Virus record (IMG/VR): IMGVR_UViG_3300033148_004507
Length of the DNA stretch: 62,219 bases
Reading direction: 5' to 3' (one strand)
DNA from: a virus
Lineage: Duplodnaviria > Heunggongvirae > Uroviricota > Caudoviricetes
A model generated the notes under the pieces. That model was not told the origin of the DNA, did no database searches, and saw nothing but the letters and a program-made list of their open reading frames with translations. The position numbers were made by a program, and so were the translations under genes. Shown one piece after another: positions 20,725-27,969 of the stretch; the first letter of the stretch is position 1, and the number at the start of each line of letters is the position of its first letter.

Positions 20725-20735
20725 TCAAATCATAT

Positions 20736-20806
20736 AGCCCTGTGGTCTAACGGTATGACACTGGACTTTGAATCCAGTAACTCCAGTTCAACTCTGGGCA
20801 GGGCTA
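20736..20806 (+). tRNA. trnQ: tRNA-Gln (anticodon TTG), archaeal type, no encoded CCA
   Basis: Acceptor AGCCCTG/CAGGGCT (A1-U72); anticodon stem CTGGA/TCCAG with loop CTTTGAA; T-arm TCCAG-TTCAACT-CTGGG. Confidence 0.93.
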
Positions 20807-21030
20807 TTATCTTATATCAAAACTACTAATGTGAAATAAATTAGTGATGTTTACTTATCTCTTGGAAGGCTTAAATATTTAGTCATTTAAGCATAATCGA
20901 ATCAGAAATATGTGAAGGAAAAAATCCAGCATTCACCTATAAATTTTTAATGTTACAACAATTAATAATACCTATATAGTAATTAATGCAATAAGCACTA
21001 TATAGAAAGAGTTTCATTATCATTTATCAT

Positions 21031-22360: not shown

Positions 22361-23992
22361 ATGGGTGAAGCTATAGCTAGAAAAATAGATGAGGATTTCC
22401 TTACAGAAGATTATGATAATCCATTAAAGAGTTCAAGTTTCATTCACGGAGATAAGACAGATATTAATCCGATACCTGAGAAGTCTGAGAAGAAATATTG
22501 GATTTCAGATTACGCATTAAATAGGATTGCCAAGAACCAGAATTACATGCTACTTATTACTGGAGGAACTGGTTGTCAACCAAAAGGTTCTCAAGTATTG
22601 ATGGCTGATGGTAGTTGGAAAAATATTGAAGATATTAAACTTAATGATGTTATATTATCTCCTCAAAAAAACGGTGGTTGCATCCGTTCAAAAGTTTTGA
22701 AGTTATATGAATGGCAGTCTGATATGTGTTTTCAAATTGTTGATTATAAGAATGAAGTTTTGTATGAATGTTCAGACAATCATGAAATACCACACATAGA
22801 TAATTCCAACAATAAAATAATTCATAAGACAGCTAAAGAACTTTGGGGTATGCACATAAGGACATTTAAAAAAGATATGAGTAAAATATATGTTAAAGTA
22901 ATTCCTAAAAATCCTAAAGGTTCAGAAATAGTTTATGGTTTTACACTCGATAGTCCAAGTAGTTGGTATGTGACAGATAATTGGATGATTACAAAGAATA
23001 GTGGTAAGAGCTATTCAGCAATGGAAATAGCATTAGACATTGACCCCACATTTACTCAAAAGAGGATTGTATTTACAGCATTAGAATTTATGGATTTATT
23101 GATGGTAGACAAGCCACCTCCACGGTCTGTTATAGTATGGGATGAAGTCGGTGTCGAGCTAAGTTCAAGGACATGGTTTTCTGCTCAGAATAAAATGATG
23201 AGCTTCGTATTCGAGACATTCAGGAGAGATAATTTAATTCTAATTATGACAACTCCGAATGTGTCATTTATAGATAAAAAGATTAGGTCTATGCTTCATG
23301 GCTACATGGAAATCTTAGACCCTAGCCAGACTAACAACGTATTTGGCAGGGCCAAGTATTTTCATATAATGCTAAATTTAATGGAGGGCAAGACATATTA
23401 TCAATATCCTAGAACGATAGATGATTGGGGTAGACAAAGGATATTGAGGGGGCGGTCAAGAACCAGTGGTAATATGAACTTCCATTTACCACCAACAGAG
23501 CTTACAGAGCCATACGAGATAAGAAAGAAAGCTCTTGTAGAGAGGGTTAAGCAAGAAACATCAGATGTTCTTAAAGGCATAAAAGCCAAGACGAAATTAT
23601 TGATTCCAGATATTGTAGAAGAGTTGGAAGGCAATCCAAGACTTTATAAATTAAACATATCTGAAGAAGAAATGACGAAAGGACAATTAGTGGCCCACAT
23701 AAATGTTTTACTTTCCATCAATTTCCCAGAGCTGAAGATGTCGAAGGGTGACATAAAGGATGCAATTGAATTTATATTACTGTCAAAAGGAGGGGATGGC
23801 AAAACAAAGACACAGATACGAGATGAAGAGATGGATATGATAAAGAGATTATTCAAATTATATCACGGTAATAAAACTCGCATTGCGAAAGCAATTAATG
23901 TTAGTGATGTTGCATTGGGTAAGAAGATAAAGAAATGGAAGAAAGAAGAACTCTGGGACGAAGTTGAGATTATGAATACGGAGTATATTTAA
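22361..23992 (+). CDS. P-loop NTPase (Zot/FtsK-HerA-like archaeal virus type) with mini-intein and C-terminal HTH
   Basis: Walker A GGTG[intein]SGKS; Walker B IVWDE; LILIMTTP; C-terminal GNKTRIAKAINVSDVALGKKIK HTH. Confidence 0.8.
   Translation: MGEAIARKIDEDFLTEDYDNPLKSSSFIHGDKTDINPIPEKSEKKYWISDYALNRIAKNQNYMLLITGGTGCQPKGSQVLMADGSWKNIEDIKLNDVILSPQKNGGCIRSKVLKLYEWQSDMCFQIVDYKNEVLYECSDNHEIPHIDNSNNKIIHKTAKELWGMHIRTFKKDMSKIYVKVIPKNPKGSEIVYGFTLDSPSSWYVTDNWMITKNSGKSYSAMEIALDIDPTFTQKRIVFTALEFMDLLMVDKPPPRSVIVWDEVGVELSSRTWFSAQNKMMSFVFETFRRDNLILIMTTPNVSFIDKKIRSMLHGYMEILDPSQTNNVFGRAKYFHIMLNLMEGKTYYQYPRTIDDWGRQRILRGRSRTSGNMNFHLPPTELTEPYEIRKKALVERVKQETSDVLKGIKAKTKLLIPDIVEELEGNPRLYKLNISEEEMTKGQLVAHINVLLSINFPELKMSKGDIKDAIEFILLSKGGDGKTKTQIRDEEMDMIKRLFKLYHGNKTRIAKAINVSDVALGKKIKKWKKEELWDEVEIMNTEYI
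22574..22999 (+). mobile_element. Mini-intein (142 aa, no homing endonuclease) inserted in Walker A
   Basis: Starts CQPKGSQVLMADGSWKNIEDI (block A); ends VYGFTLD...WMITKN followed by Ser+1. Confidence 0.9.
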
Positions 23993-25879: not shown

Positions 25880-26053
25880 ATGGTTGAATGTAATAGGTGT
25901 GATGAAGAAATAGATAGATGTGAGAACTGCCATGTTGACATGGTGGTTGAGGCTGATAGGACTGATACAAGATGTTCACCAGATGGACATTTTTGTAGTT
26001 TAGACTGTGCTTTAGACTACTATGAGATTGTAGATAATAAAATAAAGGACTGA
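25880..26053 (+). CDS. 57-aa Zn-finger microprotein (CNRC, CENC, FCSLDC)
   Basis: GGAGG RBS; read directly from sequence. Confidence 0.6.
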   Translation: MVECNRCDEEIDRCENCHVDMVVEADRTDTRCSPDGHFCSLDCALDYYEIVDNKIKD

Positions 26054-26066
26054 TAATGTGACATTA

Positions 26067-26363
26067 CACGGATATAACATCGCCATCAGCGACTCTCTCC
26101 TTGACTCTATCGAGTCAAAGGATAGACTTGGGCAACCGAGCCTATGCGTTGATTAGGAGGCAATAAGAAACATGAAAGAAACTATGCAGAAGTTAGAAGG
26201 GCGAGATACATACACACCCACGAATGCTCCACAAGTTCGTGGCAACTGTGATTCTGTGATTAAACATGACTGCGAGGTAGGTCAAGTGTTGCAGGATTTA
26301 AAAACCCCTTCTAACAACTCCGATGTGGACTTACTCCAGCATACAGGAGGGCATAAGGCCACT
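26067..26363 (+). ncRNA. IscB omegaRNA (5' guide ending about 26084; scaffold from about 26085)
   Basis: Directly upstream of the PLMP domain; scaffold begins ATCAGCGAC (cf. GTCAACTAC-type starts) with hairpin TTGACTC-TATC-GAGTCAA, then GTTGATTAGGAGG and ACACCCACGAATGCTCCACAAGTTCGTGGCAACTGTG as in archaeal IscB omegaRNAs as I recall them; boundaries approximate. Confidence 0.75.
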
Positions 26364-27533
26364 GTGTATGCATATGTGATAAACAAGAATGGACAACCAT
26401 TGATGCCCTGCAAGCCTGCGAAAGCAAGGCATTTGTTGAAGGCAGGCAAGGCAGAAGTAATAAATCGAAACCCATTCACAATTCGCTTACTATGGGATTG
26501 TGAAGATAATGTGCAACCGATTACGCTTGGCATCGATGCTGGCTACAGCAAAGTTGGTTTCAGTGCCGTGTCTGAGGAGAAAGAATTGATGTCTGGTGAA
26601 TTAACTTTAAGGAAAGGCATCTCCAAACTGATAGGGCAGAAAAGCAACTATAGAAAAACACGAAGGGGTAGATTATGGCATAGGCCACCTAGATTCCTAA
26701 ACAGAACAAGGCCAGAAGGCTGGCTTGCACCTAGCATCCAGCACAAGCTAGACAGCCATGTAAGACTTATCAAACAGATGAAATCAATCTTGCCGATAAC
26801 AAGAGTTATAGTCGAGGTTGCGAGTTTTGACATCCAGAAGATTAAGAACCCAAATATTGAAGGTAAAGAATACCAAGAAGGGGAACAAATGGGCTTCTGG
26901 AATGTACGAGAGTATGTTATTCACAGAGACAACCATGCTTGTCAGCACTGTAAGGGTAAAAAGAAAGATAAGATATTGCAGGTACATCACATCAATGATA
27001 GAATAGAAGGTGCTACAGACAGGCCAGAAGAGCTATTGACGGTGTGTAAGATTTGCCACGATGAGCATCATGATGGTGTCGATATAATTCCAACGAAAGA
27101 AATCGAGAGTTTCAAACCAGAGACTTTCATGACGATGGTTCATTGGAAGCTCACAGAAGTCTTAAATTGTGAACATACCTTTGGCTATTTGACTAAAAAT
27201 GGTAGGATTAAACAGGGTCTTGATAAATCTCATGTTAACGATGCCTTTGTAATTGCAAGTGGGATACAGCAGGAACGATGTGAGCTATATAGTGTCACAC
27301 AGGTTAGAAGAAATAACAGGTCTATTCAGTGTAATAGGAAAGGCTACAGGCCATCAATAAGAAGGCAGAGGTATAAATTACAGCCGAATGATTTAGTTAA
27401 ATATAATACAGGAATCCAACGAATAAAAGGAACATCTAGCTATGGTAGGGAAGTATCTTTTAAAGATGGGACACGCTCTAATATAAAAAATATAAAGTTA
27501 ATATGTTATGGAAAAGGGATGTGCTACAATTAA
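26364..27533 (+). CDS. iscB: IscB RNA-guided endonuclease (IS200/IS605 OMEGA system); likely start GTG 26364 rather than 26172
   Basis: PLMP domain (GQPLMPC); RuvC-I LGIDAG; Arg-rich bridge helix RKTRRGR; RuvC-II IVEVA; HNH CQHC...VHHI...CKICH; RuvC-III SHVNDA. Confidence 0.93.
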   Translation: MYAYVINKNGQPLMPCKPAKARHLLKAGKAEVINRNPFTIRLLWDCEDNVQPITLGIDAGYSKVGFSAVSEEKELMSGELTLRKGISKLIGQKSNYRKTRRGRLWHRPPRFLNRTRPEGWLAPSIQHKLDSHVRLIKQMKSILPITRVIVEVASFDIQKIKNPNIEGKEYQEGEQMGFWNVREYVIHRDNHACQHCKGKKKDKILQVHHINDRIEGATDRPEELLTVCKICHDEHHDGVDIIPTKEIESFKPETFMTMVHWKLTEVLNCEHTFGYLTKNGRIKQGLDKSHVNDAFVIASGIQQERCELYSVTQVRRNNRSIQCNRKGYRPSIRRQRYKLQPNDLVKYNTGIQRIKGTSSYGREVSFKDGTRSNIKNIKLICYGKGMCYN

Positions 27534-27593
27534 AATAAACGCAATTAATAAAGAAAGTATAAATATAATATTGATATACTTAGGAGTATTTAA

Positions 27594-27788
27594 ATGAAAC
27601 TGACATGGCAGGATTGCAGTATCGGGTTGAGTACGGCATCATCTGAGCAAGTTATGGCAATAGTCCAGAGTGAGAAGGGATTTCCACCTTTAGTTCTACT
27701 TGGTTGCTCACAAGTATCTGCTCACGGATATAACATCGCCAATAGCCGTAACCCACTGGAACAATCCTGCCGACATATGGGAGGTTAA
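27594..27788 (+). CDS. Uncertain 64-aa ORF overlapping a long hairpin
   Basis: Has a GGAG RBS but coincides with the structured element; may be non-coding. Confidence 0.3.
   Translation: MKLTWQDCSIGLSTASSEQVMAIVQSEKGFPPLVLLGCSQVSAHGYNIANSRNPLEQSCRHMGG
27607..27771 (+). other. Rod-like stem-loop (putative ncRNA or ssDNA hairpin) containing the IscB guide-matching site
   Basis: Nested pairs GGCAGGATTG/CAATCCTGCC, CAGT/ACTG, GGGT/ACCC, TACGGC/GCCGTA, TGAGCA/TGCTCA. Confidence 0.55.
27723..27741 (+). repeat. 19-nt direct repeat CACGGATATAACATCGCCA, second copy (first at 26067-26085)
   Basis: Exact match read from sequence. Confidence 0.95.
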
Positions 27789-27792
27789 TAAT

Positions 27793-27969
27793 ATGTTGGG
27801 AGAACAATTAGTATGTGGAAAATGCAATCAAGAATTTAAATTCCTGAAAATCATGAAGATAAATGGAGAGGGCAATTCAAATATAAAAGATATATATTGT
27901 TGTCCACATTGTAATGAAAAGCTTGCCGATAATATAGAAGAGGCCAATCTATTGATGGGGGTCAATTGA
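27793..27969 (+). CDS. Zn-ribbon microprotein (CGKC...CPHC)
   Basis: GGAGG RBS before ATG 27793. Confidence 0.65.
   Translation: MLGEQLVCGKCNQEFKFLKIMKINGEGNSNIKDIYCCPHCNEKLADNIEEANLLMGVN

What the first reader, a model, noticed from the sequence alone, without database searches (positions are those of the whole stretch)
26067..27746. IscB whose omegaRNA guide matches a site about 190 bp downstream of its own gene: possible RNA-guided free-standing homing nuclease
Seen: the sequence immediately 5' of the omegaRNA scaffold, CACGGATATAACATCGCC(A) at 26067-26085, recurs exactly at 27723-27741, followed by ATAGCC. An 18-nt match has a chance of about 4^-18 per position. RuvC and HNH catalytic motifs look intact. 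Established: IscB guides derive from the 5' flank, target the empty insertion site, need a 3' TAM, and IS200/605 elements make no target duplication. Inference: the guide points at a neighbouring viral locus. If the resident flank (AATAG/ATAG) is not a valid TAM, the enzyme could cut the allele of co-infecting relatives, like T4 Seg-type intronless homing. If it is a valid TAM, the system would be self-targeting or regulatory.
Basis: partly seen in the sequence, partly recalled or inferred. Interest (0 to 1): 0.8.

Follow-up and report, generated by a model that had tools for sequence, protein, structure and literature searches.

The report
IscB guide matches intact neighbouring locus
A virus-borne IscB nuclease with no transposon end sits between a vestigial and an intact copy of a small structured-RNA-like locus, so its guide perfectly matches the intact copy next door; this looks like a free-standing RNA-guided homing nuclease, but whether it spares its own genome is untested.

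Summary
The 18 nt directly 5' of the omegaRNA scaffold (26067-26084; the 19th shared base, A26085, is scaffold nt 1) recur exactly at 27723-27740. This is far beyond chance, and an independent contig from another sample shows the same arrangement.

What it is:
- A 1,449-bp omegaRNA+IscB module (26085-27533).
- No transposon-end hairpin follows the stop codon, and no TnpA is found among the 90 window ORFs of 75 aa or more.
- IscB has intact catalytic residues and is under purifying selection.

Origin of the guide: it was not retargeted. It is the last 18 nt of a vestigial copy of the downstream locus "G". The ancestral junction with upstream gene A, plus the first 9 nt of G, still sit just left of the guide. 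A complete G follows 60 nt after iscB.

G (called as a 64-aa ORF) evolves like a structured RNA, not a protein.

Two relatives carry G without this IscB. Their sites have 2 guide mismatches and different TAM-position bases. None of 51 other IscB loci has a second guide copy.

Function is inferred, not shown. I favour free-standing, Seg-like RNA-guided homing with TAM-based self-protection. A tolerated relic is nearly as likely. The TAM is unknown.

The parts
25880..26053 (+). Gene A (57 aa, Cys-rich), the conserved left neighbour
   Evidence: 55% identical to the L004 59-aa protein and 65% to the L060 homologue. Differences from L004 by codon position are 17/12/30, as expected for a coding gene.
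26054..26066 (+). Vestige of the ancestral A/G junction plus the first 9 nt of G (TAATGTGACATTA)
   Evidence: 12/13 identical to the A-G junction of the IscB-less relative L004 at the orthologous place; 0 of 2000 shuffles score as well.
26067..26084 (+). Guide-position 18-mer. It equals nt 130-147 of G and is in frame with the vestigial start
   Evidence: Exact copy of 27723-27740. It abuts scaffold nt 1 as defined by Rfam and by homologues.
26085..26334 (+). omegaRNA scaffold (Rfam HEARO RF02033)
   Evidence: 95.2 bits, model positions 1-211 of 211. Homology to the L005 and L006 elements begins exactly here.
26364..27533 (+). iscB. The gene callers start it at ATG 26172; GTG 26364 matches the N-terminus of solved IscBs
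   Evidence: Pfam RRXRR plus HNH; PDB IscB hits; all invariant catalytic residues present; dN/dS 0.08 against L005 and L006. Homology to other elements ends at the stop codon.
27534..27593 (+). AT-rich spacer. 27534-27544 is a possible 3' vestige of the split G copy. 27553-27590 resembles the 3' end of an A-type gene, i.e. a second A/G junction
   Evidence: 8/11 identity of AATAAACGCAA to the bases after the target (read directly from the sequence; weak). Local alignment to the last 35 nt of L004 gene A scores 30 with p about 0.03-0.04 and is collinear. No hairpin: dG -3.7, z -0.5.
27604..27774 (+). Element G, a conserved structured-RNA-like element (called as the 64-aa ORF 27594-27788) that contains the target
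   Evidence: Three alleles: window, L004, L060. RNAalifold gives 52 pairs, 10 of them with compensatory double changes. Differences by codon position are 14/13/13. L060 reads the 3' half in another frame. GC is 0.46 against 0.36 for the window. No Rfam family matches.
27723..27740 (+). Protospacer-like perfect match to the guide, inside intact G
   Evidence: The TAM-proximal 8 nt ACATCGCC are invariant in all three alleles.
27741..27746 (+). TAM-position bases AATAGC
   Evidence: L004 has AGAAGT and L060 has TAAAGC at this place. The first 3-4 nt are unpaired in the consensus fold. TAM validity was not tested.
27793..27969 (+). Gene Z (58 aa, zinc-ribbon-like), the conserved right neighbour
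   Evidence: 46% identical to L004 Z and 44% to L060 Z.

Best explanation
Shown. A minimal omegaRNA+IscB module (26085-27533) lies between a degenerate copy and a complete copy of one viral locus. The module has no transposon-end hairpin after its stop codon, and no Y1 transposase was found among the window ORFs scanned. The left flank keeps only the ancestral A/G junction with the first 9 nt of G, fused in frame to 18 nt from inside G. Those 18 nt abut the scaffold, which is the guide position. After iscB come a 60-nt spacer and an intact G carrying the identical 18-mer. The repeat is therefore homology by descent. IscB once sat in a G copy at CGCC|AATA, as IS200/605-type elements do. A partial duplication, or an unequal exchange with a relative, then supplied an intact G. 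Most of the split copy was deleted. The exact order of these events is inferred. Inferred function. IscB-omegaRNA acts as a free-standing RNA-guided homing nuclease. It cuts G in co-infecting genomes that lack the cassette, and repair from the cassette-bearing genome co-converts the roughly 190-1,650 bp that include iscB, as with T4 Seg/Mob endonucleases. The resident G would be spared because its TAM-position bases are not a valid TAM. The internal deletion of the vestigial copy also locks the cassette in place. Recombination between the two 18-mers would remove the first 129 nt of G together with iscB.
For: Repeat and scaffold register. Vestigial A/G junction, 12/13 identical with 0 of 2000 shuffles as good. 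Second A-like junction in the spacer, p about 0.03. IscB-less relatives with A-G-Z synteny (L004), or with G-Z and IscB copies at other loci (L060). Module boundaries at scaffold nt 1 and at the stop codon in three unrelated contexts. No hairpin after the stop, in contrast to hairpins in L016, L020 and L040. No TnpA among 90 window ORFs. Catalytic residues present and dN/dS 0.08. The guide has 0/18 changes, while the adjacent putative 3' vestige has 3/11 and the vestigial start differs from the intact G start. The retained piece is at least the 16 nt that IscB uses (own knowledge). The seed-proximal 8 nt are invariant and the TAM-position bases differ in all three alleles. Meers et al. (bioRxiv 10.1101/2023.03.14.532601) found that single-bp TAM changes abolish IscB cleavage, and that the guide-encoding site escapes by differing from the TAM at two positions. 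Here the scaffold start ATCAGC and the target flank AATAGC also differ at two positions.
Against: The guide matches the resident genome perfectly and the TAM of this IscB is unknown, so self-cleavage is not excluded. The 4 bases after the iscB stop (AATA) equal the 4 bases after the resident target, which suggests the resident site may carry the original TAM. The only cassette-less relatives found have 2 mid-guide mismatches and other TAM-position bases, and no cassette-less sibling with an identical target exists in the indexes searched. Variation at the TAM positions falls in an unpaired linker of the G fold, so it may be neutral. None of 51 other IscB loci shows a second guide copy, so this is not a recurrent strategy. 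Evidence for the right-hand vestiges is weak. Guide expression and 5' processing are untested.
Confidence: 0.45

Rival explanations
1. Evolutionary relic with no present role for the match. IscB landed in one copy of a locally duplicated G locus, or an intact G was regained afterwards. The guide-target identity is a by-product. The resident site is cut rarely, is repaired from sister genomes, or the guide is not expressed, and the cassette persists as a passenger.
For: The duplication signatures explain the repeat without any selection. The arrangement is unique among 52 loci. No susceptible cassette-less sibling was found. The AATA shared between the post-stop flank and the post-target flank suggests the resident site has the cognate TAM.
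Against: IscB is under strong purifying selection with intact active sites, and the omegaRNA scores above the Rfam threshold. The vestigial copy lost everything except the junction and exactly the guide-length piece, which carries no substitution. An active nuclease with a perfect cis target and a valid TAM should be costly, yet the genotype assembles into 84-126 kb contigs in more than one sample.
Confidence: 0.33
2. Deliberate self-targeting. IscB-omegaRNA binds or cuts the resident G DNA for the virus's own benefit. Examples would be repressing G transcription in the manner of nuclease-dead TldR-type repressors, or making a programmed break that seeds recombination-dependent replication.
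For: Perfect 18/18 match to an intact cis locus 190 bp away. The target lies in a conserved, probably functional RNA element.
Against: All nuclease residues are intact, unlike known RNA-guided repressors. The target is in the 3' part of G, not at a promoter. No other IscB locus shows such a layout. No precedent was found in the papers searched.
Confidence: 0.1
3. The two 18/19-mers are att-like cores left by site-specific integration of a circular element that carried iscB and a replacement 5' part of G, as in islands that integrate into tRNA genes.
For: Direct repeats flank a 1,656-bp segment whose right part restores the target element. G is RNA-like, as typical integration targets are. One ORF of the phage-integrase family exists somewhere in the window.
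Against: No recombinase gene lies within or next to the 1.6-kb segment. The left copy abuts the omegaRNA exactly at the guide position, which IS200/605-type insertion explains on its own. The resident 5' part of G expected on the left is missing.
Confidence: 0.05
4. Chance match or assembly chimera.
For: None beyond the general risk in metagenome assemblies.
Against: 0 of 100 shuffles gave a second match. An independent contig from another sample has the identical layout.
Confidence: 0.01

Closest known systems
IscB-omegaRNA (OMEGA) modules of IS200/IS605-type ISC elements, e.g. OgeuIscB and G. stearothermophilus ISGst5 IscB (Altae-Tran 2021, own knowledge; Meers 2023)
   Same: RuvC-HNH IscB with the RRXRR/PLMP N-terminus. 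The HEARO omegaRNA overlaps the 5' end of the ORF. The guide position is the DNA flanking the scaffold. The guide-encoding site is followed by scaffold bases that differ from the target's flank.
   Different: No transposon-end hairpin after the stop, and no TnpA among the window ORFs scanned. An intact copy of the target persists in cis 190 bp downstream, so self and non-self cannot be told apart by presence or absence of the element.
Free-standing homing endonucleases of T-even phages (SegF, SegG, MobE; intronless homing; review PMC13565253)
   Same: A nuclease gene inserted between conserved viral genes and absent from relatives. The putative cleavage site lies in the adjacent conserved locus a few hundred bp away. 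The expected spread is by co-conversion.
   Different: Recognition would be by a guide RNA plus a TAM, not by protein. The nuclease must carry a copy of its target as guide, which creates the direct repeat. Discrimination would have to rest on a few TAM bases. No activity data exist.
TnpB-driven non-restorative homing, i.e. gene drive of IS605 in plasmid populations (bioRxiv 10.1101/2025.02.20.638934, listed; discussed in PMC13565253)
   Same: An OMEGA nuclease spreads its element into element-free homologous DNA without TnpA.
   Different: There the target is the empty insertion site, which the element destroys. Here the matching site stays intact beside the element.
TldR-type nuclease-dead TnpB repressors (bioRxiv 10.1101/2023.11.30.569447, listed)
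   Same: The guide matches a nearby resident locus rather than an empty site.
   Different: TldRs have lost catalytic residues and target promoters. This IscB keeps all of them and matches the 3' part of an RNA-like element.

Membership tests
IscB / OMEGA RNA-guided nuclease | IscB protein with split RuvC, inserted HNH and RRXRR/PLMP N-terminus, catalytic residues present | tested here: met
   Pfam PF14239 6e-63 and PF01844; PDB IscB chains at about 1e-36; all invariant D/E/HH/H..D columns present.
IscB / OMEGA RNA-guided nuclease | Cognate omegaRNA (HEARO) directly upstream of, and overlapping, the ORF | tested here: met
   RF02033 at 95.2 bits against a gathering score of 83, full length, 26085-26334.
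IscB / OMEGA RNA-guided nuclease | About 16 nt of 5' flank is carried in the mature omegaRNA and directs TAM-dependent cleavage | not testable with these tools
   Only the DNA register is known. The RNA 5' end, the TAM and cleavage all need experiments.
IS200/IS605-type transposon (ISC element) | Subterminal hairpin end downstream of iscB that TnpA recognises | tested here: not met
   No hairpin in the 70 nt after the stop (dG -3.7, z -0.5), whereas L016, L020 and L040 have them (z -2.2 to -3.5). Homology to L005 and L006 ends at the stop codon.
IS200/IS605-type transposon (ISC element) | Y1 (HUH) TnpA available in cis | tested here: not met
   No PF01797 hit among 90 window ORFs of 75 aa or more. 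The other 22 kb of the contig and the host were not examined.
Free-standing homing endonuclease (intronless homing) | Nuclease gene lies between conserved genes and is absent from related genomes | tested here: met
   L004 has A-G-Z with no IscB. L060, L061 and L062 have G-Z with no adjacent IscB.
Free-standing homing endonuclease (intronless homing) | Recognition site in a nearby conserved locus | tested here: met
   18/18 guide match inside G, 190 bp past the stop. This is a sequence-level test only.
Free-standing homing endonuclease (intronless homing) | Resident allele resistant, nuclease-less allele sensitive | not testable with these tools
   The resident allele is a perfect match followed by AATAGC. 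Relatives have 2 mismatches followed by AGAAGT or TAAAGC. The TAM is unknown.
Free-standing homing endonuclease (intronless homing) | Co-conversion of flanking markers with the nuclease gene | tested here: inconclusive
   The 5' end of intact G is L060-like while the vestigial start is L004-like. The stretches are too short to be decisive.
Nuclease-dead RNA-guided repressor (TldR-like) | Loss of catalytic residues | tested here: not met
   Catalytic columns intact; dN/dS 0.08.

The most novel reading that the evidence does not exclude
An RNA-guided form of intronless homing. A TnpA-independent IscB cassette has kept only an 18-nt vestige of its former insertion target as its guide. It cuts a conserved structured-RNA locus in cassette-less co-infecting viruses and spreads by co-conversion. 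Its own adjacent copy is protected only by a few TAM-position bases, and the truncated vestige locks the cassette in place.
Probability: 0.3. Interest if true: 0.85.

Novelty: new variant of a known kind. Interest (0 to 1): 0.6.

Why it matters
OMEGA nucleases are known to home into sites that their own insertion destroys. A natural IscB that leaves its target intact in cis would discriminate self from non-self by the TAM alone. That would be the RNA-guided counterpart of phage Seg/Mob endonucleases. It would show one route by which transposon nucleases become free-standing selfish or competitive weapons in viruses. It would also give a natural test case for TAM stringency. Separately, the target appears to be a previously undescribed structured RNA-like element in a poorly known, possibly archaeal, virus lineage.

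Tried and rejected
- Exact 19-mer search of IMG/VR: no hit.
- Single-protein IscB search of IMG/VR: nothing.
- INPHARED phages: no close relative of the region.
- JGI metagenome scans with the G alignment and with a conserved G block: nothing, and not even the window's own contig was returned.
- Conserved G blocks in IMG/VR and in GTDB genomes: nothing.
- The whole genome is not held.
- The P0128 contig had no DNA available.
- I tested whether the right flank is a vestige of the 3' part of G by local alignment. It is not significant; only an 8/11 match at fixed offset remains.
- I tested whether the spacer is homologous to the sequence upstream of G in L060, or to the window's own gene A. It is not.
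- I tried to infer the TAM from the bases after the stop codon in 45 loci, and from homology to solved IscBs. No consistent motif emerged, and the TAM-interacting region did not align.
- I checked whether L029 and L050 represent a guide swap. Their upstream regions are simply unrelated.
- I considered G to be a protein gene and rejected that as the main constraint. The ORF nevertheless stays open in all three alleles.
- A covariance model of G found no further copy in 368 kb of held sequence.
- The sigma-70 promoter and terminator scan was uninformative.
Full report
**1. The observation**

The 18-mer CACGGATATAACATCGCC is present exactly twice in the 62-kb window, at 26067-26084 and 27723-27740, on the same strand. 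No dinucleotide shuffle produced a second match even with three mismatches allowed. The identity continues for one more base, and is 22/24 over the next six.

Rfam's HEARO model, which is the IscB omegaRNA, matches 26085-26334 over its whole length at 95 bits against a gathering score of 83. In the closest homologues the scaffold starts with G at the position of A26085. The 18-mer therefore occupies exactly the guide position, and the bases at the TAM position of the second copy are AATAGC (27741-27746).

The ORF ending at 27533 is an IscB:
- Pfam RRXRR 6e-63 plus HNH.
- About 1e-36 to solved IscB structures.
- Every residue that is invariant in 17 homologues is present.
- dN/dS is 0.08 against the two nearest homologues.

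The window belongs to an 84-kb JGI metagenome contig. A 4-kb contig from a different sample carries both copies and differs by one SNP in 4,093 bp. A third contig of 126 kb carries the same proteins. Chance and mis-assembly are excluded.

**2. What surrounds it**

All genes run on the + strand. The layout is gene A (25880-26053), 13 nt, the 18-mer, omegaRNA, iscB, a 60-nt AT-rich spacer, a called 64-aa ORF that I name G (27594-27788), and then the zinc-ribbon gene Z (27793-27969).

The second 18-mer lies inside G. The only homologue of the G ORF in the 5.8-billion-protein index led to L004. That contig has A', G' and Z' directly adjacent, with no IscB. A second relative, L060 (also seen as L061 and L062), was reached through the conserved 211-aa neighbour. 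It has G and Z without an adjacent IscB, but carries two other, mutually diverged IscB copies at different places. IscB modules are therefore gained at various loci in this virus lineage, and G is a resident element, not part of the module.

**3. The left flank is a vestige of G**

The 13 nt between the stop of A and the 18-mer (TAATGTGACATTA) are 12/13 identical to the A'-G' junction of L004 (TAATATGACATTA). That stretch covers the G' start codon and its next two codons, and it lies at the orthologous place. None of 2000 shuffles scores as well. The 18-mer follows in frame and corresponds to nt 130-147 of G.

The left flank of the omegaRNA is thus a G copy that has lost nt 10-129. It ends exactly where the scaffold begins. 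This is what an IS200/605-type insertion at CGCC|AATA inside G would leave, followed by an internal deletion.

To the right the evidence is weaker:
- The 11 nt after the stop (AATAAACGCAA) match the 11 nt after the intact target (AATAGCCGTAA) at 8 positions.
- 27553-27590 aligns collinearly with the last 35 nt of L004's gene A (p about 0.03-0.04). This suggests a second A/G junction in front of the intact G.
- The rest of the spacer matches nothing.

The start of the vestige is L004-like. The start of the intact G is L060-like. This hints that the intact copy came from a different allele, for example by unequal exchange with a relative. The stretches are short, so this is only a hint.

Whatever the order of events, the repeat is homology by descent between a degenerate and an intact copy of one locus. 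It is not a retargeted guide and not a target-site duplication.

**4. The module is no longer a transposon**

Homology among the window, L005 (82% IscB identity) and L006/L007 (79%) begins at scaffold nt 1 and ends at the stop codon, in three unrelated contexts.

The 70 nt after the stop contain no hairpin in these three loci (dG -2.7 to -4.7, z about 0). More distant loci carry GC-rich hairpins there: L016, L020 and L040 have z of -2.2 to -3.5, and L008 and L028 also have them. Several of these loci share an AATTCATCC-type motif.

No Y1 transposase is found among 90 window ORFs. The module is a 1,449-bp omegaRNA+IscB unit that TnpA could not mobilise as it stands.

**5. The target element G**

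G is called as a protein, but it does not evolve like one.
- Window versus L004 differences fall 14/13/13 on the three codon positions. The control, gene A, gives 17/12/30.
- Nucleotide identity (78%) exceeds amino-acid identity (64%).
- L060 carries an 8-nt insertion, so its conserved 3' block is read in another frame.
- GC content is 0.46 against 0.36 for the window.

A three-sequence consensus fold has 52 pairs. Ten pairs keep pairing through changes on both sides, including three consecutive pairs in one helix and five in a hairpin. With only two sequences the shuffle control was not decisive.

No Rfam family matches. A covariance model finds no other copy in 368 kb of held sequence.

The ORF nevertheless stays open in all three alleles, behind an AGGAG plus ATG. 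Translation through the element may matter. I call it a structured-RNA-like element of unknown class.

The protospacer covers the end of one helix, a small hairpin and an unpaired GCC. Its TAM-proximal 8 nt (ACATCGCC) are invariant. The loop bases and the first three TAM-position bases vary in all three alleles (AAT, AGA, TAA). Both variable triplets are unpaired in the fold, so this variation may be neutral.

**6. Generality**

I collected 47 IscB loci from IMG/VR, plus L005, L006 and L008. I took scaffold starts from Rfam and searched each 16-nt guide within about 2.8 kb on both sides. No locus has a second copy with one mismatch or fewer. One has a 2-mismatch hit, against a 3% background. 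The window's layout is unique among 52 loci.

**7. Mechanism**

Established background, from Meers et al.:
- The IscB guide is the flank next to the omegaRNA.
- The TAM lies just beyond the other end of the element.
- Single-bp TAM changes abolish cleavage.
- The guide-encoding DNA escapes because the scaffold start differs from the TAM at two positions.

Here the scaffold start ATCAGC and the resident target flank AATAGC also differ at two positions. That is compatible with AATAGC resembling the cognate TAM, but it does not prove it.

Two readings remain.

*Reading (a), which I favour slightly.* The module works as a free-standing RNA-guided homing nuclease. It cuts G in cassette-less co-infecting relatives, and repair from the cassette-bearing genome co-converts iscB, which lies 190 bp from the cut. 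This is how T4 Seg/Mob enzymes spread (review). The resident G is spared by its TAM-position bases. Points in favour:
- Strong purifying selection on IscB.
- Retention of exactly a guide-length piece without substitution, while the rest of the vestige was deleted or diverged.
- The invariant seed.
- The stable abundance of a genotype that would otherwise be cutting itself.

*Reading (b).* The match is a relic of the duplication. Self-cutting is weak, repaired or prevented, and the match has no role. Points in favour:
- The arrangement is unique.
- No susceptible sibling was found.
- AATA is shared between the post-stop flank and the post-target flank.

Regulatory or programmed self-targeting, and att-like integration, are less likely. 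The nuclease is intact, the target is not at a promoter, and no recombinase lies in the segment.

One further consequence follows directly from the sequence. Recombination between the two 18-mers would delete iscB together with the first 129 nt of G. Loss of the cassette by that route would destroy G.

**8. Comparison and novelty**

The parts are a bona fide IscB and omegaRNA. The unit fails the tests for an IS200/605 transposon as far as they could be run here: no end hairpin, and no TnpA in the window. It meets the sequence-level criteria of a free-standing homing endonuclease: it is absent from relatives, and its site lies in the adjacent conserved locus.

The papers searched describe OMEGA nucleases homing into sites that their own insertion disrupts, restoratively or as a plasmid gene drive. 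They treat intronless homing as a protein-endonuclease phenomenon. I found no report of an OMEGA nuclease with an intact cis target. I class this as a new variant of a known kind. Its significance depends on a TAM measurement.

Noticed in passing
window 27604-27774 (also L004:326-496 and L060:4277-4455): A conserved structured-RNA-like element of about 170 nt with no Rfam family. It has 52 predicted pairs, 10 with compensatory changes. An ORF stays open through it in all three alleles even though one allele is frameshifted. It may be a translated-through leader coupled to the downstream zinc-ribbon gene.
   Followed up: partly
L060:1-981 and L060:5592-6601: A related virus contig (ENA ERZ27250393; the same sample as L006) carries two mutually diverged IscB copies at loci other than the A/G junction. 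IscB modules seem to be gained repeatedly in this virus lineage.
   Followed up: partly
L011:1098-1121 versus L010:2700-2713: Two near-identical IMG/VR contigs differ by a 10-nt tandem microduplication (AGAGGTTTTG) within the guide region directly 5' of an IscB omegaRNA scaffold.
   Followed up: no
window 22361-23992: The 543-aa DnaA-like/AAA replication protein has a sub-threshold Hint (intein) match at residues 72-144 (26 bits against a cut-off of 32). It may be an intein, which would be a second selfish element.
   Followed up: no
window, ORFs not located individually: Among 90 ORFs there is one HNH_3 endonuclease, one phage-integrase-family protein, and DUF2240 (described as conserved in archaea), DUF4326 and DUF5131 proteins. 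The large proteins have almost no PHROG hits. Named IscB relatives come from archaeal and sediment MAGs. This may be an archaeal virus.
   Followed up: no
window 26034-26048: The A/T-rich box ATAATAAAATAAAGG lies about 25 nt upstream of 26067, the first base of the repeat. If the host is archaeal this could be a TATA-like box that sets the 5' end of the omegaRNA. Untested, and weak in an AT-rich genome.
   Followed up: no
window 26172-26363: Gene callers extend iscB by 64 codons across the 3' half of the omegaRNA. This extension is open and of similar length in nearly all of the 120 listed homologues (called products of about 450 aa). The start matching solved IscBs is GTG 26364.
   Followed up: no
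window 20735-20807: A tRNA-Gln (anticodon TTG) gene is encoded by the virus.
   Followed up: no
L047:174-5266: An IMG/VR contig has an IscB module embedded in an array of about 25 tRNA genes.
   Followed up: no
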